35,477 nt of DNA from UHGV virus genome UHGV-1967114, one strand, 5' to 3'. The translations under genes and the position numbers were made by a program. The first letter of the stretch is position 1; every line of letters starts with the position of its first letter. The notes under the pieces were generated by a model that ran no database searches, was not told where the DNA came from, and was given only the letters and a program-made list of their open reading frames with translations. The DNA comes from a virus. This document shows, in pieces, positions 1-33,770 of this stretch.

Positions 1-263
1 CTGAAGCGTTGACCCAGGGCGAAACAGTTGCTGAAGCGATGGAAGCGGCAAAAGATGCTTTACTGACCGCATTTGATTTTTATTTTGAAGATAATGAGCT
101 AATCCCGTTGCCTTCGCCATTAACTAACAACGATCACTTTATTGAAGTACCTTTGAGCGTCGCCTCTAAAGTATTGCTGTTAAATGCTTTTTTACAGTCA
201 GAAATCACTCAGCAAGAGTTAGCCAGGCGAATTGGCAACCCGAATGTAGTCAACCCAAAATAA
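1..263 (+). CDS. hicB: HicB-family antitoxin, 5' portion of a gene interrupted by prophage insertion (truncated by window start); ORF now ends in 8 phage-derived codons (NPNVVNPK) then stop
   Basis: In-frame translation ...TQGETVAEAMEAAKDALLTAFDFYFEDNELIPLPSP...SEITQQELARRIG matches my recollection of E. coli HicB N-domain plus first half of an XRE-type HTH; second half of the HTH is found at 35268..35381 on the same strand. Confidence 0.75.
   Translation, partial: EALTQGETVAEAMEAAKDALLTAFDFYFEDNELIPLPSPLTNNDHFIEVPLSVASKVLLLNAFLQSEITQQELARRIGNPNVVNPK
231..246. other. attL junction: host ATTGGC - AA - phage CCCGAATG; putative 2-bp crossover AA at 237-238
   Basis: hicB reading frame diverges immediately after codon GGC-AA; compare attR at 35261..35276 where hicB frame resumes after AA. 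Confidence 0.55.
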
Positions 264-2857: not shown

Positions 2858-3794
2858 GGCAGTAAGAAAAGTTAGTACCGTACATTTCATCATGAAGCAT
2901 TGCAGCATTGCGTTTCTGTTCTTCTTCCTCGTCTACCGCATCACTAGAAAAATGAGATTTGCCCTTAAAAGAACGAAGCAATTGCAGTGCAGCCATCGGA
3001 TCACGCATCACATCGATTTTCACTTCTACTTCATCATTTGCGGCCTCATCAGCCGCATTTTCAACTACTGCCACCGGAGCAACTTCTTTAGCTTTCAGTT
3101 CTTCAATTTCAGCTTTCTGGGCTTCGATAATCTGGTCTTTTTCTTCCAGTGCAGCTTTCAGTTCTGCGATCTGTGCTTCCAGTGCAGCAAAGCGATCTTC
3201 TACAACAGGAGAAACAGCATTAACCTGTGCTTCCAGTTCCAGAAATGCTTCGCAAGATTCAATACGTTCTTTCTCTTCACCTTCATAAGCAACCAGTTCT
3301 ACAACTTCTTTTTCGGTAGCGTGGCTGTTAAAGAATACAGCAAAGTAAGGATTGCCGGATTTAGTGAAGTTCAGTTTAGCTTTTCCGGTAACTTCTTTAC
3401 GACGACCGAAGGTGATCTGGCAATCAGCGGTATCCTGAAAATCCATGTTAGGAGCGGAAACGATAGCAGTATCACCAGCAATAACCAGGTGGAACAGTTC
3501 AGAAGAGTTCTTAACGGTAAAGGTAACGATGTGGTCTACTGCAACGTCTTTAGCTGGTTTAACGCGGTCGATTGCTTTACGAATGCCGTTAGGCAGTTTA
3601 CCGTCAACACCAAAGCCAGCCGCGATCAGTGCTTCACGATGTGCTTTAAAGCCAGCGAAAGCGGATTTCTGCTGCGCAAAGGAAACATGAGCAACAACTT
3701 TCGGCTGAATCTTCTTGTTTGCTTCGGTGCCAAATTTGATAACTGCTTTAGCGTTGGTTACTTCGTTAGTGAAAAAGTTAGCGGAAAATAACAT
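2853..3794 (-). CDS. Hypothetical early protein with central coiled coil (AALEAQIAELKAALEEKDQIIEAQKAEIEELKAKE) and acidic region; function unknown
   Basis: 313-aa ORF with normal amino-acid composition; overlapping plus-strand ORFs are low-complexity and rejected. Confidence 0.6.
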   Translation of the reverse strand: MLFSANFFTNEVTNAKAVIKFGTEANKKIQPKVVAHVSFAQQKSAFAGFKAHREALIAAGFGVDGKLPNGIRKAIDRVKPAKDVAVDHIVTFTVKNSSELFHLVIAGDTAIVSAPNMDFQDTADCQITFGRRKEVTGKAKLNFTKSGNPYFAVFFNSHATEKEVVELVAYEGEEKERIESCEAFLELEAQVNAVSPVVEDRFAALEAQIAELKAALEEKDQIIEAQKAEIEELKAKEVAPVAVVENAADEAANDEVEVKIDVMRDPMAALQLLRSFKGKSHFSSDAVDEEEEQKRNAAMLHDEMYGTNFSYCQ

Positions 3795-3840
3795 TATAAA
3801 TACTCCTGTGGAAAGTTAGTTTTAATTGTTCATCGCAAAA

Positions 3841-3875
3841 GCCTCCTTGTTGCCGCAAGGGGGCTTTTTTATTTT
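3841..3875. terminator. Intrinsic terminator, possibly bidirectional (GCCTCCTTG...CAAGGGGGC + T6, A4 on other side)
   Basis: 9-bp stem with one wobble, 6-nt loop, T-run on plus side and short A-run upstream. Confidence 0.55.
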
Positions 3876-3906
3876 TAAAGCCATCATATAATTCTCAGTC
3901 AAAGTA

Positions 3907-4089
3907 TCAGTAAACCTCTGCGGTTATCTTTACTTTAATGTCATACTTCTTTAAGAGTTTGTGGAAGGTTGATTGATCAATACCTTCACCTTTAAACCAT
4001 TCACCAATCACTACATCAGGCGTCAGTTCAAAATAACGCTTTGCCATTTCTAAAACGATTTCACGAGTGAACTTAACAGGTCGTGCCAT
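3907..4089 (-). CDS. Small putative DNA-binding protein (60 aa), member of a 3-gene paralog family sharing motif F.RE...[FY]..LKKY.IKV
   Basis: Strong RBS AGGAGG 8 nt upstream; shared motif with 7207..7467 and both halves of 7470..8045. Confidence 0.55.
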   Translation of the reverse strand: MARPVKFTREIVLEMAKRYFELTPDVVIGEWFKGEGIDQSTFHKLLKKYDIKVKITAEVY

Positions 4090-4124
4090 CTTGAATCCTC
4101 CTAAATCTGGATTAATTATTTCTT

Positions 4125-4147
4125 AAAAAAAAGAGCGTTAACCGCTC
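4125..4147 (-). terminator. Possible leader terminator/attenuator upstream of 3907..4089 (minus strand GAGCG-GTTAA-CGCTC + T8)
   Basis: Short 5-bp stem but followed by 8 consecutive T on minus strand, located between candidate promoter and the gene RBS. Confidence 0.3.
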
Positions 4148-4606
4148 ATTGTTATTTATACGGGGATTGTTTTTTAATTTTTCAACCCCTCACATTTATC
4201 TCTTATATATGTATTTATAACAGAGATATGTTAAAATGTTATTCAGATGTTATCAGGCGTGTTAAATGTGTTAAACCACAGCACGAATTGCTAAAGCGAA
4301 GAACGCGATTTAACCAAATTGATGTATATTTAATCAATTTAGAAAAATGCATAGCACTTTTTGCTAAAGCGGTGAGTATTAATTGAGCTATGAATTGTAA
4401 AGATTTGTTACAGGATTTTCTCTCAGATCCAAACCTTAACAGACATATAACAATTTAACAGGATAATAACAATAGGAAGGAAAATCGGTAAATTTTTACT
4501 TTCAATACAAATATTATAACATATTTATCTCGAATTGTCAATTATACCACTGTTCCTACACAGTGTCAACAAAGGACTTTCAAACCTACACTAGCCCTAC
4601 ACTATG

Positions 4607-4785
4607 AAAATTGCCCCTGAACCAAAATCCCCTAGATTTCACATCCCATTTTTGCCCCTGAAACCCACTATTTTTGCCCCTGAAATTCTGGGAAACAGTG
4701 ATTTTGCCCCTCATTTTTGCCCCTGAAATGCCAATAATTGCCCCTGAAAATCTAATTTTTGCCCCTGAAATTTGCCCCCGAAAAG
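4607..4785 (+). repeat. Array of 8 direct repeats, consensus TTTTTGCCCCTGAAA, spacing 13-41 bp, in a 1.37-kb non-coding region; candidate iterons / protein-binding array
   Basis: Copies at about 4611, 4652, 4674, 4704(variant CTCA), 4717, 4738, 4759, 4772(variant CCCCCGA), all same orientation. Confidence 0.8.
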
Positions 4786-5458
4786 GATTGGTAAGAAAAA
4801 CTCTTTATAAAACATTAAGTTAGTGAGGGCAAAAACGGGGAATTGGGCGTGCATAGATATTATATAACACATTCGCTACGCTCATGTGTAAAACCAAAAA
4901 CAACAAATAACCAAAAAGATATTAGGAGGGCGTAGCCCGACTGCGCGAAGCGCTAACCAATTACTTCTAGTAACACTAATTTAAACTAGATGATACTAGA
5001 TGGTCTTAGAAGGAATTAACTAGTTTGCTCGCTCGCTTCGCTCACTCTCAAACGTCTGCGACGCCACTGCGTGGCATCGAGAATCACTTCTGAAAGGATT
5101 TTCTTGAAAGGGATTTTAAACTAGTTACTAACTGATTCTAGTAAACGAACGAAGTGAGTAACAATCACTTTCTAGAAAGGTATTGGTATCCCTTCGGGAT
5201 TGCAACCTTCGGTTGCTAAATTTCTTCCTGATTATTATTTCTTCAAAAGAAAGATTCTTATATTCTAAAGATACTTCTTCGTTTTGGTGATGATTTAATC
5301 AAAATCTATGAAGGAGGGCTTTAGCCCGACTGAATCCAATCACCTTTCAAGTACAGACCAGTTTTGGACTCTACCAGATCACTCTTTTCATAATAACAAG
5401 AATTTTCTCTTTATAAATAATATTAGATTGATTCACTTTCTTTTAGAGGATTTCCACT

Positions 5459-8185: not shown

Positions 8186-10099
8186 ATGAAACTGATTTCT
8201 AATAAGGCCAAATTAAAAAAGATTCTCAGAAATGCAGCCAAATATATTACGCCACCGCCTAAACTCCTTCCTTCTGAATGGTGCGAAGCGAATCTAACGC
8301 TAGTCGATGGTCCTCGTGCTGGGGATAAAGTTAAATTACTGTCATTTCAGAAAGGCATGATTGATGCTCCTTTCCTTGAGAAGAAAAAGAAGTACGTTTT
8401 TTGTACGAGTGCGCAGATCGGAAAGACGACCATCATGTCAGGGATCATGTTTAACCAGATGGCAAACGATCCGTGCAATATCATTATCGGGCAAAGTACC
8501 GCTAAAGAAGTGGCTATGTACTTGAATACTAAGATCCGTCCTTCTATTGAAGCATGTCCGGCATTACAGGAAGTGGTAACAGATAAGAATGATCGTAATG
8601 CGGTAAACAACAATAACCAGATTCAGCTAAAAACAAACCATTTCCTTTACATGGTTTCTTTGACCAGTCCTTCAAGTTTGCGTGGGCGTACTGCCAAGTT
8701 AGGGATTGTAGACGAATGCGACGCAGCAACAATCACCGAAGAAGGTTGTCCGGTGGCACTAACTGCAAACCGTTTAACTACCTTTGGTGATGAAGCTCGA
8801 TTGATTGTTTCTAGTACCCCAACCAATAAGCTGGGAATCATTAACCAGCAATGGTTATCAAGTGATATGCGTATGTTTTTTGTTCCGTGTCCTCATTGCG
8901 GGGAACACCAGGTGATCGAGTGGGAAAACGTTCAATTTGAATGGCGTAACATCGATGGTAAGAACTTACCCGATCCTGATACCGCTCGTTATATTTGCCC
9001 CCACTGTAAGCAATCATGGACAGAAGGGGAACGAATCAGGGCAGTAGCGCAAGGCGAGTGGAGAGCAACCCGTGAAAGTGAAGTAGCAGGATTCTGGATC
9101 AGCCGTCTGTATTCACCTTTCAGTAGTATCCGCGCTTGTGTGGTTGATTTTAGTCATGCGTGGCAATCCTTTGATTTACAATCATTTTATAACACAGTGT
9201 TAGGTAAGGTATACGACGATCAGGACACGGCAGTAGAAGCAAATGAACTGGAACAACTCAAAACAGATGTTTCTATCGAGAATATCCCTGATGACGTGAT
9301 TTTCTTGTGTGCGGGTACTGACCAGCAATTAGATCGCGCAGAAACTACGATCATGGGCGTGGCAAAGGATAAGATTTATATTCTGGATCATCGCAGCTTT
9401 TACGACCATAACTGTGAACGATATGAATCTCCTGTATGGGACAGATTAATCAACTTCCATAAAACCAAATTTACTACTGTATCGGGTGATCGTGTTCCTA
9501 TGCTCGCCAGCTTCCTTGATACATCGAACGGTCGATTCACTCAAGCCGGATACCGTATTTGCGGTGGTAAGTGGAAGAACTTACACGCAATCAAAGGTAG
9601 TTCATCTGGTACTGCTCCAATCATTCCGGTGAAACCAACTACCACGGGTGGTCATGAATTGCTTATGTTGGGCGTTAACGTGGGTAAAACGGCTATTCGT
9701 GAGCTATTAACACGCAACTTGAAAGAAAACCCTCATATTGGTTTAGAGATATCAGAAACCGTTCCTGATGATTATCTCGATCAGCTTTTGAGTGAATCCA
9801 TCAAGCGTACTGTTACTGGAACACGTTGGGTAAAAAATCCAGGTGCGACACGAAACGAGGCGCTCGACTGTCTGGTTTATAGCTATGCGGCTTCTCGCTA
9901 TGTTCTTTCAAAAATGTCATGGGATAAGCTCATTGCAATGAAAGAAAAGCTGAATCGTGAACCAGAAGCAACCGTAGAAGCTCCTAAATCACATTCTAAC
10001 GAGCAAATCGAAGAAACTAAGCCAATCACTCATCACAAACCTAATCGTCGTCCTATGGCGCGTCCTGTGCGTCGTGGTGGGTGGGTAAATAACTTTTAA
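8186..10099 (+). CDS. Terminase large subunit (lambda gpA-like ATPase/nuclease)
   Basis: 637 aa; Walker A-like SAQIGKTT and Walker B LGIVDECD; CPHCGEH...CPHCKQ motif; position upstream of portal. Confidence 0.85.
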
Positions 10100-10170: not shown

Positions 10171-10665
10171 ATGAGTTTAGAACTAATTCCCTTAGTAATT
10201 CGTAAAGGCGAAAAAATCACGCTGGCGAATGAAGAGGGTGTAACAATTCAGGTAGGAAATAGTAAAGGTATCATTTATCAGGTTGATGACACTCCGGCTA
10301 ATCATGAGATTAAAACCTTAGATTTTGCCGAAGGTAAATATACCATCGTAACCACTTTGGAAAATGAACTGGTATCAATGCAGGAATTAACTGTTTTACC
10401 AGTATTCGCCAAACAATCCAAAAAAGAATATCTGCGGGAAACTATCGCCACCATAGAGCAAGTTATTTTCGCCAGGCTATCTGGAGACGAAGCCGCATTA
10501 TCTGCAATGACCGTGAAAGGGAATACTTTCGCCTATGAGTCATTAGGTGTTCTCCAGCAATTAAAGACTGATTATGAACGTCAGTTATCTAAACTAATTC
10601 AAGCCGAACGACGTAAACAGGGAATTAGCCCGATTAAAAATATCAAATTACGTCTTACGCGATAA
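10171..10665 (+). CDS. Hypothetical head-module protein between terminase and portal
   Basis: 164-aa ORF with RBS AAGGGGTAA; position only. Confidence 0.5.
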   Translation: MSLELIPLVIRKGEKITLANEEGVTIQVGNSKGIIYQVDDTPANHEIKTLDFAEGKYTIVTTLENELVSMQELTVLPVFAKQSKKEYLRETIATIEQVIFARLSGDEAALSAMTVKGNTFAYESLGVLQQLKTDYERQLSKLIQAERRKQGISPIKNIKLRLTR

Positions 10666-10675
10666 GGGGTAAATC

Positions 10676-12187
10676 ATGTTTAATCTTTTTCGACGCAAAA
10701 AGGCGGTAGAAACTCCAGTTAAAACTAATCACCGCCAGCAACAACCAAAAATTTTCATCGACAAATCTATAGAAAGATACCAGAAAGACATATCTAAACG
10801 TAGTTTAGGACTGGTTGGTGATCGCATTGATGGATCGCTTCAACAAGATACTATCACAGGAACCTTCAATAAGGCTCTCAAATCGAACGGTAAGCGCCTT
10901 TATGATCAGGGTCGTACTCTGGCCTTAAACACTTCCGTAGGCAGTCGCTACACGCAATACATCACCGATATGGTGGTTGGTACTGGTCTAGATCCGAAGC
11001 CGTCAGTTGTTAAATCAAATGGCAAACTTGATAGCGCACTGAATAAGCAGATCGAGAATGCTTTCTGGAAGTGGGCGCAGAATGCTAAACGCTTCTCTCG
11101 TAACGGTCGCTTTAACTTCCGTGAATTGCTGGTAATGGCTGAACGTGAGCGCGTTATGGGTGGTGAGTGCTTCATAGTTTTAACCAAAGAAAACAATGAG
11201 TTAAATGTTTCTATCCTGTCTGCTGATAAGTGCGACTGGACGCTCAACCGTGAAGTAAGCAAAGAACGCGCTATCTATCAGGGGATCGAGTATGACGTAG
11301 AAACAATGCGCCCTGTTGCATTTTGGTTTCGTAAAATCAACCTACTGACTCAGACTTACACAGGTGATAACTATCGCGTAGATGCTTCGCAAGTATGCCA
11401 TTATTATCAACCACTTGCGGCCGAATCTCTGCGTGGTGTGACTGACTTCCTGCCAGTGATCAAGGATATTGCGCATCAAGACGCATTCCGCGAAACCGCG
11501 ATCATCCAGAAACGTATTGCAGCTAGCTCTATGGGCTTTATCGAACGTCCGAAAGATTCTGGTGACGATTTTGATACTGGTGAAGAGGATGAACAATATC
11601 AAGCGCCGGAAGTAGTACAGGATTTTGCACCGGGTACTATTCAGGAATTGCCGGAAGGGGCAACGATTAAATCAATCCAAGCTACTCAATCAGGCGATGA
11701 TTTCAATTCCTTCAATGATGCGATGTTTACTAGCGTATCAATGGGCTTAGGCGTGTTCAAACAGGGCTTAACAGGAGATTGTTCACAAATCAACTACTCA
11801 GCCGCGCGTTTCGGCGAATTGCTTCAACGTAACCGTGTTAAATCGCTGCAAAACAAATTGATTGAAACAGTGGTGTTGCCAATTTTCGAAGCGTATCTGC
11901 GTCATTATTCTGCGCGTGGTATTGTTCCGATTCGTATTACTGCAATTCCACATATTATCGATAACACTACTATTATCAGGCCACGTTTCGAGTCTGTCGA
12001 TGTTATTAAAGACGTAAACGCTGATATTGCTTTAATTGATAAAGGACTTAAATCACGTACTGCCGTTATTCTTGAACGTGGTGATGATCCTGAAAAAGTA
12101 TTCTCAGAGATTCAAGCCGAAAAGAGCGCACTAAATATTATCGTTAATGGCGAGGGTGAAGAAAAAAATTCCCCAGCCGATCCCTAA
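10676..12187 (+). CDS. Portal protein
   Basis: 503 aa, immediately downstream of terminase large subunit and upstream of protease/capsid gene; acidic region typical of portals. Confidence 0.7.
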   Translation: MFNLFRRKKAVETPVKTNHRQQQPKIFIDKSIERYQKDISKRSLGLVGDRIDGSLQQDTITGTFNKALKSNGKRLYDQGRTLALNTSVGSRYTQYITDMVVGTGLDPKPSVVKSNGKLDSALNKQIENAFWKWAQNAKRFSRNGRFNFRELLVMAERERVMGGECFIVLTKENNELNVSILSADKCDWTLNREVSKERAIYQGIEYDVETMRPVAFWFRKINLLTQTYTGDNYRVDASQVCHYYQPLAAESLRGVTDFLPVIKDIAHQDAFRETAIIQKRIAASSMGFIERPKDSGDDFDTGEEDEQYQAPEVVQDFAPGTIQELPEGATIKSIQATQSGDDFNSFNDAMFTSVSMGLGVFKQGLTGDCSQINYSAARFGELLQRNRVKSLQNKLIETVVLPIFEAYLRHYSARGIVPIRITAIPHIIDNTTIIRPRFESVDVIKDVNADIALIDKGLKSRTAVILERGDDPEKVFSEIQAEKSALNIIVNGEGEEKNSPADP

Positions 12188-12232
12188 TAACCAACGGGGG
12201 CGCAATGCCCCCAATTAATTAAAGGTGATTAA

Positions 12233-14233
12233 ATGCTTAAATTTCGCCGCGATCTTAACGGTTACGGTGGAGTTATTAACGAAGGGCAGAATGATCAATA
12301 CGAATTTGAAATTGCTTTCTCCAGTGAACAGCCTTATCAGCGCCAATTCTGGGATGAGCAAAATCAAGAAATGGTGGTATTAGATGAAATTCTGGTACAT
12401 ACACCGGAAGCGGTTGATCTGTCTCGTCTGAATAATAACGCTCCGTTGCTGTTCAATCATAATTTCGATAATCACATTGGTGTCGTTTGTAACGCTCGAA
12501 TCGATGCGGATAACGTAGGTCGTGCTCTGGTTAAATTCTCCAAGCATGGCACTTTGGCTAATGATATTCGTAATAAAGTCATTGAAGGTACGATGGAAAA
12601 AATTTCTGTCGGTTATGACATTAAAGAATATCACATCGACTACACCAAAGGACAATTGATTGTTACTAAGTGGGCACCCTATGAACTCTCATTTGTCACC
12701 GTTCCCGCAGACGATACGGTCGGTTTAAATCGCTCTCTAAATACTATCACAGTTAATTTGGAGGCTAAACGCGATATGACTAAAGAACAAATCGAAGAAA
12801 TCAAAGAAGAACAAGAACCCGCTCAGGTTGAAGAAACTCCGGTAGAAGAAATTAAAGAACCGGAAGTTGAAGAAACTCAAGAGCGCCAAGTTGAAGAGAA
12901 TAAAGAAAATGAAAATCTCGAAGACGGAAAAGACGCTGAACATCCTGAAAGTGTTGATGATGATAGTTCAACTGTTCGGGAAGAAGAAGTAAAAGAAGAA
13001 CGTGAAGCCGCTCCGGTTGAAGAAGAAAAAATCGAAGAAGTGGCTGAACGTTCCGAAGAAGACGAATTAGAAATTCGCGAGATCGCTCGCGAGCTAAATA
13101 TTAACGACGAAGAATTAGAACGCGCATTGGCAGTTAAAGACATGACGCCGGAAGCATTCCGCACTAAGGCACTAAATAACATTACCAATGCTCAACGTAA
13201 TAACGAACAAATTAAGGACTCTAAAATGGAAAAAACTTTTGACCTGAACAACGTAATTCGCTCTCTGGTAGATGGTGCTGCTCTGGGTGCTAACGAAGCT
13301 GAATATTCCGCTATGGCTGCTGGTGCTGCAATGCAGCGTGGTCGTGCTGCTCGCGGTGGCTCTGTATTCGTTCCGGCTGCTGCTCTGCGTGCTGCTTCCG
13401 AAGGTAACACCAAAGCTACTCTGACCGCTGTAACTGACGAAAAACTGCTGACCGAATCCTATGTTGAAATGCTGTTGCCTCAGAGTGTTTTAGGCCGCCT
13501 CGGTGTGACTGTTCTGTCTGGTCTGAATGCTCCGATTGCTGTACCGAAAATGACTACTTCCAGCGTTGATGCTTTCGGTTTCGTTGATGAAAACGGTGCT
13601 GCACCGGAAAGCAAAGCTGAATTTGCAAACGTGAAAATGGCTCCGAAAACTTTTGCTGGTGGCAACCCGATCAGCCGTCAGTCTCTGAAAACTGTTCCGA
13701 ATATTGCTACCCTGATCACCGATCACATTAACAAATCTGTTCGGATCAAACTGGAACAACTGATTCTGTCTGATAAAGAAAATGCTCGTGGTCCGGCTGG
13801 TCTGGTTAAGCAACTGGTAGACGCGGGTCGCGTTACTAAGAAAGCCGCTTTCTCTTACAAAGACTTCCTGAAAGAAATTGCAGCACTGACCGACGCTGGC
13901 GTTCCTGCTCAGGCGATCAAGTTTGCGATGAGCGGTGCAACTGCTGCTGAACTGGAATCTACCCTGAAAGATAACGGCGTTTCCGGTTATATCATCGAAA
14001 ACGGCAAACTGGCTGGTTACGAAGTAGTTACTTCTGGTGTTATCCCGGCAGACCACATCGTTCTGGGCGCGTTCGACGGTATCACCATTGGTGAGTGGGG
14101 CGGTCTGGAACTGGATATGGACGACACTACCTACCGCGCACAGTCTGCTATCGTTCCGCGAATCTGGGTAGACCTGGATTATGTTGTTACTCAGCCGGAA
14201 GCCCTGAAAGTTCTTCACATCTCCGCTGAATGA
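12233..14233 (+). CDS. Prohead protease - scaffold-like acidic coiled-coil - major capsid protein (HK97-fold) fusion
   Basis: N-terminal motif LLFNHNFDNHIGV...SVGY...ELSFVTVPADD resembles HK97-type prohead protease (recollection); residues ~180-330 are E/K-rich; C-terminal ~330 aa capsid-like. Confidence 0.7.
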   Translation: MLKFRRDLNGYGGVINEGQNDQYEFEIAFSSEQPYQRQFWDEQNQEMVVLDEILVHTPEAVDLSRLNNNAPLLFNHNFDNHIGVVCNARIDADNVGRALVKFSKHGTLANDIRNKVIEGTMEKISVGYDIKEYHIDYTKGQLIVTKWAPYELSFVTVPADDTVGLNRSLNTITVNLEAKRDMTKEQIEEIKEEQEPAQVEETPVEEIKEPEVEETQERQVEENKENENLEDGKDAEHPESVDDDSSTVREEEVKEEREAAPVEEEKIEEVAERSEEDELEIREIARELNINDEELERALAVKDMTPEAFRTKALNNITNAQRNNEQIKDSKMEKTFDLNNVIRSLVDGAALGANEAEYSAMAAGAAMQRGRAARGGSVFVPAAALRAASEGNTKATLTAVTDEKLLTESYVEMLLPQSVLGRLGVTVLSGLNAPIAVPKMTTSSVDAFGFVDENGAAPESKAEFANVKMAPKTFAGGNPISRQSLKTVPNIATLITDHINKSVRIKLEQLILSDKENARGPAGLVKQLVDAGRVTKKAAFSYKDFLKEIAALTDAGVPAQAIKFAMSGATAAELESTLKDNGVSGYIIENGKLAGYEVVTSGVIPADHIVLGAFDGITIGEWGGLELDMDDTTYRAQSAIVPRIWVDLDYVVTQPEALKVLHISAE

Positions 14234-14367: not shown

Positions 14368-14397
14368 AGCCCTGCCGTTATTGGCGGGGCTTTTTTG
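14368..14397 (+). terminator. Intrinsic terminator (AGCCCTGCC-GTTATT-GGCGGGGC + T6)
   Basis: Strong GC stem and T-run; near-identical copy at 20307..20336. Confidence 0.75.
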
Positions 14398-14426: not shown

Positions 14427-14717
14427 ATGTTCAAATTATCAGAATCACAATTATCAAGAATGTTTAAGAGTGCTCCTGTATTTTCGGTGGAAGGTGGTAA
14501 ATCAATTCGTGCTTATCATGAAATTACTACTACCGACGAATCAGGGGTAATGACAGAGACAGAATTTCTATTTTGTCGTGAGGGAGACTTAAAGCAGGGT
14601 GATATTGTCACTGTAGAAAATCAGCGTTTCAAAGTTCAATACGTTAAGCGCAATGGTGATAATACCACTGATTGCTTTATTACTCTGGCAGGGGGTACAC
14701 ATGCTCGCTACCGTTAA
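14427..14717 (+). CDS. Head-tail connector/adaptor candidate
   Basis: 96-aa ORF with RBS AAGGGGGTAA directly after capsid gene terminator; position only. Confidence 0.45.
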   Translation: MFKLSESQLSRMFKSAPVFSVEGGKSIRAYHEITTTDESGVMTETEFLFCREGDLKQGDIVTVENQRFKVQYVKRNGDNTTDCFITLAGGTHARYR

Positions 14718-15132: not shown

Positions 15133-15966
15133 ATGAATATTACACAAGATAACTTAGATATTTTCACTGGATCACATGTTGAAGTGTCGATCTCTAACCA
15201 GATAGACAATCAGGTCGACTTTTTCGATCCTAGCTTTAGTTCTATGGAGAACATCGCAGCATTCCCTACGCTAACCGAATCCACAGAGATAGAAACTCTG
15301 GAAGAGTACGATCAGGACGCTACGGGGAAACTTGCTGGTTATCGTAGACTGGAACCGACAACACTCACATTAAACCGTGTTCTTGACGATGAACATCAAG
15401 CAATGTTGATGAAAGCGGTAGAGGATAAAACACCTTTACGCTTCCGTATGTTCTATGTTGTGAACTCTGGCTATAGTGCTGCTAACACAGGGTACTTTTG
15501 TATATTCGATGCTTACGTCACATCACATAAAACCCGTGGTAGTGATAACAAAGCTGTAACACTGGAATTTAAACTTGAACCAGATGGCGGGATTCTAGCA
15601 AGGGGTATAGCGACCGAGGGAAAAATTCTGCGACAAGGGGATTATGGCGTAGGCTCAGGCGTTAGCCCATTCACCGGACCTATTGATAGTGAATCTCTGA
15701 CAGGAAACCGCTTCGTAACCTACAAAGGAACGGCTAGCACTAACCCTTATGGTGCTGATACATCATTAATTCACCTTCAAGCTAATGAGCATGGCGCATG
15801 GCAATTAACCTGTAATACTTCCGGTGCACCACGTTTACGTGTCCGAAATATTCAGGAAAACGGTCGCTCTGAATGGATCAAGGTATATTCCACCAATGAG
15901 AAACCGACACCTAGCGAAATTGGCGCAGTGGCTAAGACTGATAGAATCGACTTCGGTGAGTATTAA
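15133..15966 (+). CDS. Tail-tube-like paralog (N-domain related to 19702..20175) with extra C-terminal domain carrying KPTPSEIGA motif
   Basis: Shared DIFTG...LTL...ED.T...F....VT.EF...DG pattern with the gpV-like protein; C-terminal motif shared with tail fiber. Confidence 0.5.
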   Translation: MNITQDNLDIFTGSHVEVSISNQIDNQVDFFDPSFSSMENIAAFPTLTESTEIETLEEYDQDATGKLAGYRRLEPTTLTLNRVLDDEHQAMLMKAVEDKTPLRFRMFYVVNSGYSAANTGYFCIFDAYVTSHKTRGSDNKAVTLEFKLEPDGGILARGIATEGKILRQGDYGVGSGVSPFTGPIDSESLTGNRFVTYKGTASTNPYGADTSLIHLQANEHGAWQLTCNTSGAPRLRVRNIQENGRSEWIKVYSTNEKPTPSEIGAVAKTDRIDFGEY

Positions 15967-16041: not shown

Positions 16042-19000
16042 ATGCAATCAATCCAATTTAAACGCACACAAACGGCTGGTAAAAAACCAACGCCGGAACA
16101 ATTACAGGTCGGTGAAATCGCTATTCAGATGGCAGACCATGTAATTTACACCAAAGACAAAAATAACGCAGTAGTTCAAATCAGCGTTTCCCCAGAAAGT
16201 CATAATGCTTTAAACACGAAAGTAGACAATAACAAAACTAGCACTGACCGTGTTATTGCTTCCAACAAACAAGAGGCCGCTAATAATCTGGCTAGTGCTA
16301 AAGCTGAACTGAATCAGACTATTACCACGAAAGATACAGCGACCAATAAGCGCATTGATGCTACCAACACCACTGTTAGTAACTTAACCCAGACAGTTAC
16401 GGCAAATAAAACCGATGCCGACACTAAGATCAATAACCTTACGGGGACCGTATCTGCGAATAAGACCGCAATTGAAAGAACCGTTGCCGCAAACAAATCT
16501 GATGCAGATAGCAAACATGCAGCTTTAACGAAAACGGTCACTGACAATAACACCGCGATTAACAACAAGGTTAATACCACTAACACCAACGTTAGCAACT
16601 TAACTAAAACTGTTACTGCAAATAAAACCGATGCAGATAACAAAATTTCTAGCTTAACTAGCACGGTTGCAGCTAACAAGACAGCGATCGAAAAGACTGT
16701 TTCCGACAATAAGAAAGACGCGGATACTAAGATTACCAATCTTACTGGCACTGTTAATAGCAACCATACCGCAATTAACAACAAGGTAGACCAGAATAAA
16801 TCTTCTACTGATGCCGCAATTGCAGCCGCTAACAAACGAATTGATGGTATTGAAGGTAGCAATGATGCTCTTTACATCAAGAAGAATACCAATACTAAGC
16901 ATGGTGGGTATCTGTTAAGCAAGACAGCTAACTATCTGGAAGACCAGACATCACGAGATCTTAACTACTTTGGTGCTTTCCGTACCAATGGTCAAGATGG
17001 ACTCATGGATCTAACTCTTAACGTTCCTCACTCTTCCGGTAAAGCGCACGGTCGCGGATTTACTTTCCGTTATGCATCTGGTGGATCTCGTGTTGAAACC
17101 TATGGTTTTGATAGAGAAGGACAGAAGAACTTTAGCTATAAGATGTATCACGAAGGTGATAAGCCGACTCCTGGCGAGATTGGTGCATACACCAAAGCCG
17201 AAGTTGATAAGATGTTTGTTAAAAACGTCGTTATGTCTGTTCCCAATTCTAGCGAAAACGTATCTGCATATTTCAAATTGGCAACCGCAACAATTCCACA
17301 AAACGGGCGTAGTGTGTTTTTCCGTATTCATGGTGGTAATGGTTACAACGTTACGGCATATGATCAGGTTGACGTAGTAGAAATTCTTCTGCGTAGTGGT
17401 AACGATAGACCTAAAGGTCTTAACGTAATTGCATACCGTAGAAATACAAACAAAGATTTTGAGGTATTTGCTGTCAATACTTCCGGTGATAACTATGATA
17501 TCTACGTGAAATATCAGCGTTATACCGATAACGTTATTGTCGAATATGGGAAATCTGTTTATGTAAGTTTGACGGTTTATGATACGCCGGAAGCCACGTT
17601 AATTAAACCTTCCGTTGGTGTTATCGGTGGTCGCAACGTAACTCTTTTTAATACTGAAAATAAACGTGGTGTGTTAAGTTTTGATGATAACACACAAAAC
17701 AGCTATGACATTGTTCATCTAAGTAATGATAAAGGTACTGGACGGAAATATATTCGTAAATTCCGTAGCAACTATAACGAAATGGTTTGGCATGAAACCG
17801 TTCAGGGTGCTGTATATCGTCTTGCTACTGGTGCTACAGATTCTACAGAAGTTATTAGAATTGATTCTAATAGTGCAATACCGGGTAATTATAAAGGATA
17901 TGTAATTACTGGTAAAATGGAATTGCACGGTAGTGGTAATGCGATGACTTTACATCGACAGACTGGTCAAGCTGCATATATGGCGTGGTGGGATCGTCGT
18001 GATGGTAAAAACCAACGTAGTGGTTATATCGGTCATGCGGATGGTACTAGTGATGGTTTTGTGTGGCGTAATGATGTTGGTGCTAACTCATTTGATTTGG
18101 AAGGTAGTGGACAAGTAAATTTGACTACAGGAAAAACAAAAATTGTATATACCAATGGTCAATATTATTCCGCTAACGCTGATGCATTCCGTATGATTTA
18201 CGGTAAGTATGGTGCATTCTGGCGAAATGATGGTGGTAAAGTTTATCTGTTGTCTACTGCCGAAAATGATAGATTTGGTGGTTGGAATACATATCGACCT
18301 TTTATCTACGATCTTACTTCCGGTAACGTTCAATTAGGTGGTGATGGAAACGAAGATGTATTAACTCTAGAACGCGCAAGCAAGGCCGCTCGATTCTCTG
18401 GCAACGCTTACATCAAAGGTCAACATTTAACATTTGATGCTGGTGCTGGACAATCCCGCGATTACTTCCGGTTTAACCATTGGGGCGATAGTAATAACGC
18501 TCGCGATAACATCCTACAGATTGAAGACAGTCAGGGTGCACACTTTACCACTGAACGCGCTATGGGTACTGGCAATATCACAGCACGTTTTAAAGGCTTC
18601 GTGCGTGTAGAATCCGGTGAGATTGCCTTTGATGCTAATCGTGGATCTGCGTCTCAATTTACCTTACATACATGGGGTAACGAGCAACGCAAACAGGTTT
18701 TTGAATGTAAGGATGCTACTAGTTATCATTGGTATACCGAACGTACAAACGGTGGAACTGGTCCTATCCTGTTCTCTGTTGCTGGTACATTAAAAACTGC
18801 GAGCAATATACAGGTTGGCGGTGCTGATATTGAGTTTCGTCGCAGTGGTAATAAGCATTTATGGTTTAGAGATCCGAACGGTTTAGAATTAGGTTTGATG
18901 TACTGCGATGATGCTGGTGTTATCCGCTTCCGTGGTCAGAAACAAGGTCAAACTTGGAAACTTGCTGATAAAATGATTCATCTTGAGGCGGGGACTGTCG

Positions 19001-19644
19001 GCGGGTCTGATAAAGGTTTGATTCGTGGTAATGTTGCTGGTGGTAGCTGGGCTAGCTGGCGTGATCGTTCTGCCGGAATCCTCGTAGACTGTCCGAACTC
19101 AACCGATTCCGCTCATAACATCTGGAAAGCGACTCATTGGGGAAAATATCATATTGCGGCAATGGGTGTGCATGTTCCTAGTGGTACTATTACCAATGCT
19201 TTAGCTCGCCTAAACGTTCACGACGCCAACTTTGACTTTAACGCTGCGGGTGATTTTAGCGCAGGTCGTAACGGTAGCTTTAACGATGTTTACATTCGCT
19301 CTGACTCCCGTTTGAAGATTAACAAGGAAGAATTACAGGACGGTGCATTAGAGAAAGTAAACTCACTGAAAGTCTACACCTACGATAAAGTTAAATCTCT
19401 TTCCGATGACACGGTGATTAAACGCGAAGTAGGTATTATTGCTCAGGATCTGGAAAAAGTATTGCCGGAAGCAGTAGGTATTCAATCCACAGAAGATCCA
19501 GAACAACCGGAAGCAATCAAGACTATTTCTAACTCTGCTGTTAATGCCTTGATTATTAAAGCTATGCAGGAAATGGACGCCAAATATAAAACACAGATCG
19601 AAGCATTACAGAAAGAAATTGCCGAACTGAAAGCAACTAAATAA
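16042..19644 (+). CDS. Tail fiber protein (1200 aa) with N-terminal repetitive shaft and C-terminal intramolecular chaperone (peptidase S74-like) domain
   Basis: Repeats TVTANKTDADTKI...; C-terminal YIRSDSRLKINKEELQ...LKVYTYDK matches endosialidase-type chaperone signature (recollection). Confidence 0.75.
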   Translation: MQSIQFKRTQTAGKKPTPEQLQVGEIAIQMADHVIYTKDKNNAVVQISVSPESHNALNTKVDNNKTSTDRVIASNKQEAANNLASAKAELNQTITTKDTATNKRIDATNTTVSNLTQTVTANKTDADTKINNLTGTVSANKTAIERTVAANKSDADSKHAALTKTVTDNNTAINNKVNTTNTNVSNLTKTVTANKTDADNKISSLTSTVAANKTAIEKTVSDNKKDADTKITNLTGTVNSNHTAINNKVDQNKSSTDAAIAAANKRIDGIEGSNDALYIKKNTNTKHGGYLLSKTANYLEDQTSRDLNYFGAFRTNGQDGLMDLTLNVPHSSGKAHGRGFTFRYASGGSRVETYGFDREGQKNFSYKMYHEGDKPTPGEIGAYTKAEVDKMFVKNVVMSVPNSSENVSAYFKLATATIPQNGRSVFFRIHGGNGYNVTAYDQVDVVEILLRSGNDRPKGLNVIAYRRNTNKDFEVFAVNTSGDNYDIYVKYQRYTDNVIVEYGKSVYVSLTVYDTPEATLIKPSVGVIGGRNVTLFNTENKRGVLSFDDNTQNSYDIVHLSNDKGTGRKYIRKFRSNYNEMVWHETVQGAVYRLATGATDSTEVIRIDSNSAIPGNYKGYVITGKMELHGSGNAMTLHRQTGQAAYMAWWDRRDGKNQRSGYIGHADGTSDGFVWRNDVGANSFDLEGSGQVNLTTGKTKIVYTNGQYYSANADAFRMIYGKYGAFWRNDGGKVYLLSTAENDRFGGWNTYRPFIYDLTSGNVQLGGDGNEDVLTLERASKAARFSGNAYIKGQHLTFDAGAGQSRDYFRFNHWGDSNNARDNILQIEDSQGAHFTTERAMGTGNITARFKGFVRVESGEIAFDANRGSASQFTLHTWGNEQRKQVFECKDATSYHWYTERTNGGTGPILFSVAGTLKTASNIQVGGADIEFRRSGNKHLWFRDPNGLELGLMYCDDAGVIRFRGQKQGQTWKLADKMIHLEAGTVGGSDKGLIRGNVAGGSWASWRDRSAGILVDCPNSTDSAHNIWKATHWGKYHIAAMGVHVPSGTITNALARLNVHDANFDFNAAGDFSAGRNGSFNDVYIRSDSRLKINKEELQDGALEKVNSLKVYTYDKVKSLSDDTVIKREVGIIAQDLEKVLPEAVGIQSTEDPEQPEAIKTISNSAVNALIIKAMQEMDAKYKTQIEALQKEIAELKATK
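16366..16797 (+). repeat. In-gene tandem coding repeats (two ~216-nt units with ~33-nt subrepeats) in tail fiber shaft
   Basis: Near-identical stretch ACTGTTACTGCAAATAAAACCGATGC at ~16390 and ~16611; explains spurious minus ORF 16314..16862. Confidence 0.6.
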
Positions 19645-19701: not shown

Positions 19702-20175
19702 ATGTCTCAGCAATTTAAAGATATTTTTACTGGTGGTCTGGTAAGTATGTTCTATCACGCCGATACCACTAACACCAATCTTGCACATGAAAGCTATGAA
19801 GAAATTAAAGAGTGTGCTGGTTTTCCTGAAACTGGTATCGAGCGCGGCACTGTAGAAGTTAAATCCTTCTCTTCTCAGTATAACCGTAAGCTGGTAGGTA
19901 AACTGAACGTTCCTGATCTGACTCTGACCGTTAACTACATTCCTGGTGATGCGGTACACGAGAAGCTCATTAAAGCTGCCGAAGACGGTACTCGAATTCA
20001 GATTAAGATTGAATACTATGTAGATGCAGCAAAACAGACTGGTATTCGCACAGCTTTCAACGGCTTCATCTCTAAAGTTGCTATGAACGGTGGCGATGAA
20101 GAAGTGGTAACGAAAGAGTTTACCTTTGCTGTTGATGGTGCTCCGCTGAAACAGCAAATCTTCACTGCCGGATGA
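19702..20175 (+). CDS. Major tail tube protein (lambda gpV-like N-domain)
   Basis: Pattern PGD...L....EDGT...I......F.GF......G..EVVT..F...VDG resembles gpV; RBS TAAGGGGTAA; position upstream of chaperones and tape measure. Confidence 0.7.
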   Translation: MSQQFKDIFTGGLVSMFYHADTTNTNLAHESYEEIKECAGFPETGIERGTVEVKSFSSQYNRKLVGKLNVPDLTLTVNYIPGDAVHEKLIKAAEDGTRIQIKIEYYVDAAKQTGIRTAFNGFISKVAMNGGDEEVVTKEFTFAVDGAPLKQQIFTAG

Positions 20176-20349: not shown

Positions 20350-20856
20350 ATGGCAAATGTCGTTAAAGTTCCTGGCTGGATCGGGTCATCTGCTGTATCG
20401 GTGACGGGTAAGCGATGGATGAAAGAAGCATTAACAGCTTTAAAAGTTCCGGCTCCGCGTAATATGTCGGCAATGGCTGGTCGTGGTATGGATACGGTTG
20501 TAGCTACTGCATCGTGGTCTACTTCATTGGGTAATAACTGGGGTGTAACTGCTTCAAACTATCCTGTTTCCGGTATGCAAAGCAAAGGATCTATGGAGAA
20601 CCCCGAAAACGTGGGCGTAGGGCGTCTGGTTGGCGTTATCGTTGGTCAATTCAATGGCGGTACTCCTACTATGGCTGTATATCTCCAGAACGGTAGAGCG
20701 GGGAATATAACCGTTAATTTGGGTGGTGCTGCTGTCACTGTTCCTTATAACAGTATGCAAAGTGGTTTTCATTACTATTGGTTAAGCAATCCTCCGGCTG
20801 CTTTCCTAACAAATATTAAGAAAACTGGCACTAAGCAGACTTTGAAAATCTCTTAA
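20350..20856 (+). CDS. Hypothetical Gly/Ser/Thr-rich protein inserted between tail tube terminator and tail chaperone genes
   Basis: 168-aa ORF with RBS GGAG; no lambda counterpart at this position. Confidence 0.5.
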   Translation: MANVVKVPGWIGSSAVSVTGKRWMKEALTALKVPAPRNMSAMAGRGMDTVVATASWSTSLGNNWGVTASNYPVSGMQSKGSMENPENVGVGRLVGVIVGQFNGGTPTMAVYLQNGRAGNITVNLGGAAVTVPYNSMQSGFHYYWLSNPPAAFLTNIKKTGTKQTLKIS

Positions 20857-33721: not shown

Positions 33722-33730
33722 ACCATTTCC

Positions 33731-33770
33731 AAACAAAAACGCCCCTACCGCGTATTATAACGATAGGGGC
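33731..33770 (-). terminator. Terminator-like hairpin between secreted-protein gene and recombinase gene (minus strand)
   Basis: GCCCCTA...TAGGGGC stem with 16-nt loop, followed on minus strand by GTTTTTGTTT. Confidence 0.45.

What the first reader, a model, noticed from the sequence alone, without database searches (positions are those of the whole stretch)
12233..14233. Single 666-aa polypeptide combining prohead protease, scaffold-like acidic linker and major capsid protein
The N-terminal ~175 aa carries an HK97-type prohead protease signature, residues ~180-330 are a Glu/Lys-rich coiled-coil-like region, and the C-terminal ~330 aa is the capsid domain. No separate protease or scaffold gene is present between portal and capsid. 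This implies self-processing of the capsid precursor, a less common head-module architecture.
Basis: partly seen in the sequence, partly recalled or inferred. Interest (0 to 1): 0.5.

Follow-up and report, generated by a model that had tools for sequence, protein, structure and literature searches.

The report
Fused prohead protease–scaffold–capsid gene
An E. coli prophage makes its head-maturation protease, an internal scaffold-like segment and its major capsid protein as one 666-residue polypeptide; this is real, but it is a widespread arrangement that databases and papers already name.

Summary
ORF 12233-14233 (+) encodes 666 aa with an S78 (HK97 gp4-type) prohead protease domain (aa 21-167) and an HK97-fold capsid domain (aa ~406-666). 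The catalytic H76/S125/E151 align with gp4 H65/S114/E141. No other head protease or scaffold gene lies in the 35.5-kb window. Residues 168-269 form a polyanionic tract (net charge about -35) that is proline-punctuated and predicted disordered, not a Glu/Lys coiled coil. Residues 270-390 form a confident, family-conserved helical domain in the position of HK97's delta domain. A flexible hinge at 391-405 is the likely maturation-cleavage zone. Self-processing is inferred, not shown. The architecture is not new. The identical protein sits in E. coli RefSeq genomes, and PHROG 617 matches end to end. PHROG 4523, NCBIfam NF045541 and SEA-PHAGES all name such fusions, and papers describe 'protease-scaffold-capsid fusions'. 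At least 454 clusters at 50% identity and at least 591 viral contigs encode relatives. I tested a possible nested internal start at M182; a synonymous-shuffle null did not support it family-wide (p = 0.11). Verdict: correct, ordinary, already known.

The parts
12222..12228 (+). Shine-Dalgarno-like AAGGTGA, 4 nt upstream of the ATG at 12233
   Evidence: Read directly from the sequence. Duplex energy with the anti-SD is -4.3 kcal/mol.
12233..14233 (+). Whole ORF: 666-aa protease-linker-scaffold-capsid polyprotein (73.4 kDa, pI 4.6), stop codon included
   Evidence: PHROG 617 matches aa 20-661 against profile positions 23-621 of 626, E = 1.2e-92. An identical protein, P0001, occurs on 78 public contigs.
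12293..12733 (+). Prohead protease domain, aa 21-167 (Peptidase S78, HK97 gp4 family)
12458..12460 (+). Codon of His76, predicted catalytic histidine
   Evidence: Invariant in 69 sequences sharing 24-91% identity. Aligns with HK97 gp4 His65.
12605..12607 (+). Codon of Ser125, predicted catalytic nucleophile (motif ISVGY)
   Evidence: Invariant in 69 sequences. Aligns with HK97 gp4 Ser114.
12683..12685 (+). Codon of Glu151, an invariant acidic residue and candidate third catalytic residue (motif W-x-P-x-E-x-S)
   Evidence: Invariant in 69 sequences. Aligns with HK97 gp4 Glu141. A catalytic role is inferred, not shown.
12734..13039 (+). Polyanionic, predicted disordered tether, aa 168-269 (11.9 kDa, pI 4.1)
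   Evidence: pLDDT is below 50, with only one short helix at 184-192. Prolines sit at 196, 203, 210, 238 and 261, and only 17.6% of residues are hydrophobic. dN/dS is about 0.94 with very low dS of 0.031. Close relatives place indels at 191, 194 and 250 here and at 290, 325 and 327 in the helical domain.
12760..12778 (+). Candidate internal start: GGAGG (12760-12764), 11-nt spacer, in-frame ATG of Met182 (12776-12778). Function not established.
   Evidence: SD duplex energy is -9.3 kcal/mol, the 0.5th percentile of the ORF. Against a synonymous-shuffle null, p = 0.057 for the window and Fisher p = 0.11 across 26 lineages.
13040..13402 (+). Helical scaffold-like (delta-domain-like) region, aa 270-390
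   Evidence: Five helices (275-287, 292-300, 306-335, 338-347, 353-368), a short strand and helix 382-389, with pLDDT of about 73-94. Motifs are conserved across the family consensus. dN/dS = 0.24. No sequence match to any solved structure.
13403..13447 (+). Flexible hinge, aa 391-405; most likely zone of the maturation cleavage (inferred)
   Evidence: pLDDT is below 50 between two confident domains. It lies just upstream of the stretch that aligns to residue 12 of the 268-residue capsid chain 8GTA_A.
13448..14230 (+). HK97-fold major capsid domain, aa 406-666 (the piece from 391 is about 29 kDa)
   Evidence: Pfam PF05065 at aa 408-662, E = 2.2e-25. TIGR01554 scores 71.7 bits against a cut-off of 27.5. 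phmmer to 8GTA_A gives E = 8.4e-25. Foldseek to 8GTA gives E = 2e-18, with HK97, D3, GTA and SaPI1 capsids also matched. dN/dS = 0.21.
14368..14397 (+). Terminator-like hairpin (10 pairs, 7 G-C) followed by a T-run, downstream of the capsid gene
   Evidence: This is a consensus match only.
10676..12187 (+). Lambda-family portal gene immediately upstream (context)
   Evidence: PF05136, E = 3.3e-62.
8186..10099 (+). gpA-type large terminase (context); a gpW-like head-tail joining ORF follows at 10171-10665
   Evidence: PF05876 and PF20454; phrog_5774.

Best explanation
The gene encodes a capsid polyprotein that folds HK97's separate gp4 protease and gp5 (delta domain plus capsid) into one chain, in the order protease, flexible tether, helical scaffold-like domain, HK97-fold capsid protein.

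Proposed pathway:
1. The C-terminal HK97-fold domains assemble on the portal into a procapsid shell. The N-terminal ~390 residues of each subunit point inward.
2. The helical domain (aa 270-390) plays the assembly-directing role of a delta domain or scaffold.
3. The disordered polyanionic tether (aa 168-269) lets each covalently attached protease reach neighbouring chains.
4. Once concentrated inside the shell, the Ser125/His76 protease cuts within or near the hinge (aa ~385-405) and degrades the internal parts, itself included.
5. The fragments leave. A shell of ~29-kDa mature subunits remains, which expands as the gpA-type terminase packages DNA.

What is shown here: the domain identities, folds and order; conservation of the catalytic residues; purifying selection on the three folded parts; and the absence of any other head protease or scaffold gene in the window.

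What is inferred: inward topology, the scaffold role, cis or trans self-cleavage, the cleavage position and the fate of the fragments.
For: - Domains: Pfam S78 and Phage_capsid both score above their curated cut-offs. PHROG 617 matches full length at E = 1e-92, and PHROG 4523 is named 'major head and protease protein'.
- Active site: H76, S125 and E151 are invariant in 69 sequences at 24-91% identity. They align to HK97 gp4 H65, S114 and E141.
- Selection: dN/dS is 0.19 for the protease, 0.24 for the helical domain and 0.21 for the capsid domain.
- Stability of the fusion: 89 of 89 related loci carry both domains in one frame. 454 clusters at 50% identity reach E <= 1e-30, and nearly all of the top 150 are 565-700 aa.
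- The same module order (TerL, gpW-like, portal, fused gene) occurs in VP882, phiHAP-1, ep3, Mica, Murka and S-CBS3.
- No other head protease or scaffold: Pfam and PHROG scans of all other sizeable ORFs found only an M15 endolysin and a tail-fibre S74 chaperone domain.
- The model shows a disordered tether, a helical domain and a hinge.
Against: - No experimental data on processing were found for this protein or for any close relative. The phiHAP-1 and VP882 characterisation papers are not in the held library.
- The scaffold role of aa 270-390 rests on position, helicity and conservation only. There is no detectable sequence similarity to the HK97 delta domain or to any solved scaffold.
- Carrying one protease per capsid subunit is a heavy internal load. 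My own rough estimate, assuming T=7 and HK97-like prohead dimensions, is about 18 MDa, or roughly 45% of the cavity. That leaves room for a mechanism that lowers the protease dose.
- The tether shows dN/dS of about 0.94, so its exact sequence is not conserved. Its role may be purely physical.
- The ~1,100 bases of the prophage beyond the right end of the window were not examined.
Confidence: 0.8

Rival explanations
1. Nested translation. Besides the full-length polyprotein, ribosomes start internally at Met182 (GGAGG, 11 nt, ATG at 12776) and make a 485-aa protease-less scaffold+capsid protein. That product would resemble HK97 gp5, and the nesting would resemble lambda C/Nu3. Most shell subunits would then carry no protease, and the protease dose would be set by the ratio of the two starts. 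A second possible start at Met332 (TAAGGA, 7 nt, ATG at 13226) would give a 335-aa protein.
For: - The SD match upstream of Met182 is the 0.5th percentile of all positions in the ORF, and Met332 is at 2.6%.
- All nine phage homologues first examined have a Met 5-35 residues after the protease domain. Its SD rank is at or below 5.4% in five of them.
- Four enterobacterial-clade representatives (window, L001, L016, L070) all have AAGGA or GGAGG followed by ATG at this boundary, with p = 0.057, 0.18, 0.01 and 0.057.
- The stretch downstream of Met182 shows unusually low synonymous divergence.
Against: - With the protein sequence held fixed in synonymous shuffles, and lineages de-replicated below 60% identity, the signal is not significant. 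Fisher p = 0.11 for the Met182-type site and 0.12 for the Met332-type site.
- 5 of 26 lineages have no Met within 50 residues of the protease end, and 9 of 26 have none near the start of the capsid domain.
- Purine-rich Glu/Lys codons generate SD-like strings by chance.
- The clade-level support was picked out after seeing the data.
- The low-diversity tract fits the patchy recombination mosaic seen across the whole locus.
- No internal promoter-like site was found.
Confidence: 0.15
2. The protease domain is a catalytically dead relic kept only as an internal structural or scaffolding module, and maturation cleavage is done by a host protease or another phage protease, or does not occur.
For: No direct activity data exist. 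The TIGR01543 'proheadase_HK97' equivalog score is 36.9-40.3 bits, below its 59-bit cut-off, so the domain is divergent from canonical gp4.
Against: - His, Ser and Glu are strictly invariant across 69 divergent sequences and coincide with gp4 H65, S114 and E141.
- dN/dS = 0.19.
- The Pfam S78 score is above its cut-off.
- The fold matches active prohead proteases.
- No alternative head protease is present in the window.
Confidence: 0.04
3. The single ORF is an artefact: a sequencing or assembly frameshift, or a pseudogene-type fusion of two adjacent genes in a decaying prophage.
For: The element is a chromosomal prophage. In strain PI7 its terminase is annotated as frameshifted.
Against: - The same continuous frame occurs in 89 of 89 loci from unrelated hosts and in hundreds of 50% clusters of 565-700 aa.
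- The identical protein is found on 78 contigs.
- The window's own terminase is intact, because the ~110-bp insertion is specific to PI7.
- All three folded segments show purifying selection.
Confidence: 0.01

Closest known systems
HK97 gp4 (S78 prohead protease) plus gp5 (delta domain + major capsid protein)
   Same: The protease family is the same and the catalytic residues align: H65/S114/E141 with H76/S125/E151. The capsid fold is the same. A scaffold-like N-terminal extension is fused to the capsid protein. From my own knowledge of the HK97 literature, the logic is also the same: the protease is enclosed in the prohead and then digests the internal domains and itself.
   Different: HK97 has two genes, 3348-4025 and 4028-5185 in NC_002167; here there is one. 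From my own knowledge, gp4 is targeted non-covalently by its C-terminal tail and is present at far fewer copies than gp5. Here the tail is replaced by a covalent ~100-residue polyanionic tether, which gives 1:1 stoichiometry unless an internal start exists. The helical domain shows no detectable sequence similarity to the HK97 delta domain. HK97's cross-link lysine K169 aligns to Ala457 here, although that alignment is weak.
Fused 'major head / major capsid and protease' proteins of Hapunavirus (VP882, phiHAP-1), Jilinvirus ep3, Burkholderia phage Mica, Xanthomonas Foxunavirus (Murka, FoX), Rhodobacter RcA/RcC phages and cyanophage S-CBS3 (PHROG 617)
   Same: These are homologous over the full length at 27-31% identity. 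The three-part order is the same, and so is the upstream module of gpA terminase, gpW-like protein and lambda-family portal. [quoted passage not shown]
   Different: Their linkers are shorter (92-158 aa) and only mildly acidic (net -1 to -7), against -35 here. The tail modules are often different, for example the P2-like contractile tails of VP882, phiHAP-1 and Mica.
Actinobacteriophage 'protease-scaffold-capsid fusions' (Arthrobacter clusters AM, AU, AN; Microbacterium EE; Gordonia CW/DM; Rhodococcus RRH1) and NCBIfam NF045541 'prohead protease/major capsid protein fusion protein'
   Same: The concept and domain order are the same and are explicitly described in the literature (PMC5513430, PMC7302621). 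SEA-PHAGES uses the function name 'major capsid and protease fusion protein'.
   Different: These are separate lineages. The window protein scores 131.6 bits against NF045541, whose cut-off is 525, and only its N-terminal half aligns. In the actinophages the fusion is linked to very small genomes; here the genome is a ~35-40-kb temperate coliphage.
Lambda gpC/gpNu3 (and Mu gpI/gpZ) nested protease-scaffold genes
   Same: Protease and scaffold functions share one reading frame. The flanking lambda-type genes (A, W, B, FII homologues) are present here.
   Different: From my own knowledge, lambda's protease belongs to a different family (S49/ClpP-like), its scaffold Nu3 is made from an internal start, and its capsid protein gpE is a separate gene. 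Here the protease is S78 and the capsid protein is part of the same chain. An internal start is not established.

Membership tests
Peptidase S78 (HK97 gp4-type caudoviral prohead serine protease; Pfam PF04586) | Sequence match to the family profile above the curated threshold | tested here: met
   PF04586 scores 41.6 bits against a cut-off of 21, covering aa 40-162 and profile positions 23-149 of 165.
Peptidase S78 (HK97 gp4-type caudoviral prohead serine protease; Pfam PF04586) | Catalytic His and Ser at the positions of HK97 gp4 His65 and Ser114 (the catalytic residue numbers come from my own knowledge of the HK97 literature) | tested here: met
   A profile-guided alignment pairs H76 with H65 and S125 with S114, and also E151 with E141 and PAD with PAN. 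All three residues are invariant in 69 divergent homologues.
Peptidase S78 (HK97 gp4-type caudoviral prohead serine protease; Pfam PF04586) | Herpesvirus-assemblin / T4 gp21-like fold | tested here: met
Peptidase S78 (HK97 gp4-type caudoviral prohead serine protease; Pfam PF04586) | Proteolytic activity on the capsid precursor | not testable with these tools
   Needs expression with an S125A control, or virion mass spectrometry.
TIGR01543 proheadase_HK97 (NCBI equivalog) | Score at or above the equivalog cut-off | tested here: not met
   36.9-40.3 bits against a cut-off of 59. The domain is a divergent S78 member, not an equivalog of gp4.
HK97-fold major capsid protein (Pfam PF05065 / TIGR01554) | Sequence match above the curated thresholds | tested here: met
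   PF05065 scores 90.1 bits against 24.2. TIGR01554 scores 71.7 bits against 27.5 on aa 391-666.
HK97-fold major capsid protein (Pfam PF05065 / TIGR01554) | HK97 fold | tested here: met
   Foldseek gives 8GTA at E = 2e-18 (TM-score normalised to the target 0.71), and HK97 1OHG, 2FT1 and 3E8K at E of about 1e-10 to 1e-11.
HK97-fold major capsid protein (Pfam PF05065 / TIGR01554) | HK97-type Lys169-Asn356 chainmail cross-link residues | tested here: inconclusive
   K169 aligns to Ala457, but N356 and E363 did not fall in aligned match columns. The alignment is too weak to decide.
PHROG 617 (fused 'major head protein' family) | End-to-end match to the ~626-position profile that covers protease, linker and capsid | tested here: met
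   E = 1.2e-92, aa 20-661 against profile positions 23-621 of 626.
NCBIfam NF045541 scaf_prot_MCP2 (prohead protease/major capsid protein fusion protein) | Score at or above the model cut-off over the full length | tested here: not met
   131.6 bits against a cut-off of 525, with only profile positions 4-287 of 634 aligned. The architecture is the same but the lineage differs.
Delta-domain-type internal scaffold (HK97 gp5 residues 2-103) | Helical segment directly N-terminal to the HK97 fold | tested here: met
   Helices between aa 275 and 389 with pLDDT of about 73-94, followed by a hinge and then the HK97 fold.
Delta-domain-type internal scaffold (HK97 gp5 residues 2-103) | Required for assembly and removed by the protease | not testable with these tools
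   No experimental data found. No sequence similarity to solved scaffolds.
   For aa 168-269, pLDDT is below 50 and only a 9-residue helix is predicted. There are five prolines, 17.6% hydrophobic residues and a net charge of about -35. From aa 270 onward the model shows several short helices rather than one long coiled coil. No dedicated coiled-coil predictor was available.

The most novel reading that the evidence does not exclude
In the enterobacterial clade of this family, the polyprotein gene may be a nested gene. A conserved SD+ATG at the protease/linker boundary (Met182, 12760-12778) would produce a protease-less scaffold+capsid protein alongside the full-length chain. The capsid would then be built mostly from gp5-like subunits and seeded with a tunable minority of protease-bearing ones. 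The unusually low synonymous divergence across 12712-13062 would reflect nucleotide-level constraint on this internal translation-initiation region.
Probability: 0.15. Interest if true: 0.4.

Novelty: already known. Interest (0 to 1): 0.15.

Why it matters
The finding has little discovery value, because the protein, its family and its fused architecture are already catalogued. Three practical points remain:
- RefSeq labels the gene only 'phage major capsid (family) protein', which hides the protease and scaffold parts. A better name is 'prohead protease/scaffold/major capsid fusion protein'.
- The boundaries given here (protease 21-167, disordered polyanionic tether 168-269, helical domain 270-390, hinge 391-405, HK97 fold 406-666) are a ready design for testing single-gene, self-maturing HK97-type capsids in E. 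coli. Such capsids could serve as a compact nanocontainer chassis.
- The stoichiometry question, one protease per subunit or a nested start, can be tested cheaply in this system.

Tried and rejected
1. Nested internal starts at Met182 and Met332. These looked promising on nine phages. They did not survive a synonymous-codon-shuffle null on 26 de-replicated lineages: Fisher p = 0.11 and 0.12, and several lineages lack the Met altogether. Negative-control Mets in the folded domains gave p = 0.89 and 0.998. I keep this only as a low-probability rival.
2. Nucleotide-level constraint in the acidic linker. dS is 0.031 there against 0.19-0.35 in the flanks. A sliding-window profile shows the whole locus is a patchwork with other near-zero patches, so recombination explains it equally well. 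This is unresolved.
3. A second head protease or scaffold elsewhere in the window. None was found.
4. Artefactual gene fusion. Rejected.
5. Experimental evidence for processing in relatives. The phiHAP-1 and VP882 papers are not held. The R4C capsid paper does not mention a protease or cleavage. The V. campbellii phiHAP-1-like prophage paper gives no size data.
6. The search for related loci with the 69-sequence alignment failed because no stretch was conserved enough. A 9-sequence alignment worked.
7. Sequence similarity of the helical domain to solved structures. None was found.
8. The conserved N-terminal extension in cyanophage and marine relatives. Pfam gave only a Tudor-like hit, and I did not pursue it.
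Full report
**Observation.** The window holds an ATG-initiated ORF of 666 codons at exactly 12233-14233 on the + strand. It is preceded by AAGGTGA at 12222-12228. It starts 45 nt after the stop of a lambda-family portal gene (10676-12187; PF05136, E = 3e-62). Upstream of the portal lie a gpA-type large terminase (8186-10099) and a gpW-like ORF (10171-10665). Downstream come a terminator-like hairpin (14368-14391), an FII-like ORF (14427-14717) and the tail genes. The finding's coordinates and length are correct.

**Domain identities.**
- Pfam places Peptidase_S78 on aa 40-162 (41.6 bits; cut-off 21) and Phage_capsid on aa 408-662 (90.1 bits; cut-off 24.2).
- PHROG 617 ('major head protein', 626 positions) matches end to end at E = 1.2e-92. 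PHROG 4523 is literally named 'major head and protease protein'.
- NCBIfam's TIGR01554 (major_cap_HK97) passes its cut-off on the C-terminal segment.
- TIGR01543 (proheadase_HK97) and NF045541 ('prohead protease/major capsid protein fusion protein') are hit but score below their cut-offs.
- The protease is therefore a divergent S78 member, and the fusion belongs to a different lineage from the one NF045541 was built on.

**Structure.**

An AlphaFold2 model built from a 69-sequence alignment (mean pLDDT 80.2) splits the chain into five parts:

| Residues | Prediction | pLDDT |
|---|---|---|
| 21-167 | β-rich domain | >90 |
| 168-269 | essentially unstructured; one 9-residue helix | <50 |
| 270-390 | helical domain | about 73-94 |
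| 391-405 | hinge | <50 |
| 406-666 | α/β domain | mostly >85 |

- The C-terminal part matches solved HK97-fold capsids: Foldseek gives 8GTA at E = 2e-18, and also HK97, D3, GTA and SaPI1 capsids. phmmer to 8GTA_A gives E = 8e-25.

**Active site.** Across 69 homologues sharing 24-91% identity with the query, the only invariant columns in the N-terminal half are M1, E52, H76, G83, S125, Y128 and E151. I fetched HK97 itself and aligned gp4 to a profile of this family. H76 pairs with gp4 H65, S125 with S114, E151 with E141, and the PAD motif with gp4's PAN. From my own knowledge of the HK97 literature, H65 and S114 are the gp4 catalytic residues, and the fetched sequence does have His and Ser at those positions.

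- Residues 176-300 hold 44 Glu and 8 Asp against 8 Lys and 8 Arg, a net charge of -36. The tract is Glu-rich, not Glu/Lys-rich.
- The segment 168-269 has five prolines and only 17.6% hydrophobic residues, and it is predicted disordered. A coiled coil is not supported there.
- The helical part is a separate domain at 270-390. Its motifs are conserved across the whole family consensus, and it sits exactly where HK97 gp5 carries its delta domain.
- The linker is net-negative in all 26 de-replicated lineages (-1 to -46). It is strongly polyanionic only in about half of them, including this clade.

**Selection.** I compared the window with seven viral contigs at 90-93% protein identity.
- dN/dS is 0.19 for the protease, 0.24 for the helical domain and 0.21 for the capsid domain.
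- dN/dS is about 0.94 for the acidic tract.
- Apart from one at the C-terminus, all indels among these close relatives fall in the linker or the helical region.
- The three folded parts are therefore maintained by selection, while the tether's exact sequence is not.

**Refutation tests named in the finding.**
- A protease domain is detected in residues 1-175, by sequence and by fold.
- No separate head protease or scaffold is present. Pfam scans of every other sizeable ORF found only an M15 endolysin (31160-31513) and the S74 intramolecular-chaperone domain at the C-terminus of the tail fibre.
- The window is a chromosomal E. coli prophage inserted at hicB, 99.9-100% identical to strain PI7.
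- About 1.1 kb at the right end of the element lies outside the window and was not examined.

**How common and how well known it is.**
- The identical protein is in NCBI, JGI and UniRef on 78 contigs, named 'phage major capsid protein' or 'HK97 family phage prohead protease'.
- The gene occurs in 52 of 5,426 complete E. coli genomes.
- An exhaustive HMMER scan of 1.84 billion cluster representatives gives 6,632 hits, 454 of them at E <= 1e-30. Nearly all of the top 150 are 565-700 aa and match both halves.
- At least 591 IMG/VR contigs encode relatives. In all 89 loci examined, the two domains share one uninterrupted frame.
- Homologous fused genes sit in the same TerL, gpW-like, portal context in VP882, phiHAP-1, ep3, Mica, Murka and S-CBS3, and directly after the portal gene in RcCronus.
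- Published descriptions exist. [quoted passage not shown] Thaumarchaeal proviruses have an S78 protease fused to the MCP (PMC6563490).
- Arthrobacter AM, AU and AN clusters and Rhodococcus RRH1 have a 'fused protease-capsid gene' (PMC5513430). [quoted passage not shown]
- 'Major capsid and protease fusion protein' is a standard annotation term.
- The finding is therefore correct but already known.

**Mechanism.** The best-supported reading is an HK97-type maturation pathway collapsed into one chain.
- The shell-forming C-terminal domains assemble on the portal, with the N-terminal ~390 residues inside.
- The helical domain acts as the delta-like scaffold.
- The disordered tether gives the covalently attached protease reach.
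- Concentration inside the shell triggers cleavage near the hinge and digestion of the internal parts.
- This leaves ~29-kDa subunits (for masses).
- From my own knowledge, HK97 gp4 is targeted to the prohead by its C-terminal tail, which is the end that is covalently joined to the scaffold here. The fusion is thus a topologically natural replacement for that interaction.
- Domain identity, order, catalytic conservation and selection are shown. Topology, self-cleavage, the cleavage site and fragment loss are inferred.

**A more interesting possibility that did not hold up.**
- Met182 lies exactly at the protease/linker boundary and is preceded by GGAGG. Its SD duplex energy is -9.3 kcal/mol, the 0.5th percentile of the ORF.
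- All nine phage homologues first examined have a Met shortly after the protease domain, often with a strong SD-like string.
- That suggested a lambda C/Nu3-style nested start producing a gp5-like protein without the protease.
- Glu/Lys-rich coding sequence imitates SD motifs, so I used a synonymous-shuffle null on 26 lineages de-replicated below 60% identity.
- Fisher p is 0.11 for this site and 0.12 for a second site at Met332. 5 of 26 and 9 of 26 lineages respectively lack a Met altogether. Controls behaved as expected, with p = 0.89 and 0.998.
- Within the enterobacterial clade the motif is consistent, but that subgroup was chosen after seeing the data.
- I give nested initiation about 15%.

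**Unexplained.** Synonymous divergence collapses across the acidic tract: dS is 0.031 against 0.19-0.35 elsewhere. Third-position diversity is 0.04 or less over about 360 nt, window 12712-13062. The locus as a whole is a recombination mosaic with other short low-diversity patches. A recent recombinational sweep and a nucleotide-level constraint therefore cannot be told apart with eight sequences.

**Verdict.** The architecture and the likely self-processing are right. The coiled-coil description and the domain boundaries are wrong. The novelty class is 'already known', and interest is low.

Noticed in passing
window 16042-19644 and 20350-20856: A 1,200-aa tail-fibre gene (Gp34_trimer and Peptidase_S74 chaperone domains) shares about 78-82% nucleotide identity over ~2.6 kb (window ~16910-19576) with the gp37 distal long-tail-fibre genes of lytic T4-like Krischvirus phages such as RB49 and JSE. 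A gp38-like adhesin N-domain ORF follows. This is a T-even fibre module inside a lambda-like temperate prophage. It lies between a major-tail-like ORF (15133-15966) and a second tail-tube-like ORF (19702-20175).
   Followed up: partly
window 12712-13062: Synonymous divergence nearly vanishes across the acidic linker among relatives at 90-93% identity: dS is 0.031 against 0.19-0.35 in the flanks, and third-position diversity is 0-0.037 over four consecutive 90-nt windows. This could be a recombination block or a nucleotide-level constraint; it is unresolved.
   Followed up: partly
window 1-260 and 32042-33736; L089: The window is a chromosomal E. coli prophage inserted into the hicB antitoxin gene, which RefSeq annotates as truncated in strain PI7. 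A large serine recombinase sits near the right end. The element occurs in 52 of 5,426 complete E. coli genomes.
   Followed up: partly
window ~8300; L089 15958-16068: The otherwise 99.9-100% identical prophage in strain PI7 has about 110 extra bases inside the large terminase gene, which PGAP annotates as 'frameshifted; internal stop'. The window's terminase ORF (8186-10099) is intact.
   Followed up: yes
L001 (GenBank PQ671644, Escherichia phage DCP80) 1-13786: A 141-kb record filed under Straboviridae begins with this lambda-like head module: gpA-type terminase, portal and a 666-aa fused protease-capsid protein 46% identical to the window's. All are annotated 'hypothetical protein'. The record may be a chimeric assembly.
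   Followed up: no
L008 2275-4785 (S-CBS3); L056, L063, L073 and others: Cyanophage and marine relatives carry a further conserved extension of 240-460 aa upstream of the protease in the same frame, giving polyproteins of up to about 1,000 aa. Recurring motifs include MREEAQRYRxWK and RPYPNEHAARL. Pfam finds only an Hva1_TUDOR hit.
   Followed up: partly
window 14368-14397: A strong terminator-like hairpin (10 pairs, 7 G-C) with a T-run lies about 135 nt after the capsid stop codon. HK97 and phage Mica have a similarly placed annotated terminator after their capsid genes.
   Followed up: no
window 13601-13603 (Ala457): In a weak profile alignment, HK97 gp5 Lys169, the chainmail cross-link residue, pairs with Ala457. 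There is thus no evidence that this capsid uses HK97-type covalent cross-linking.
   Followed up: no
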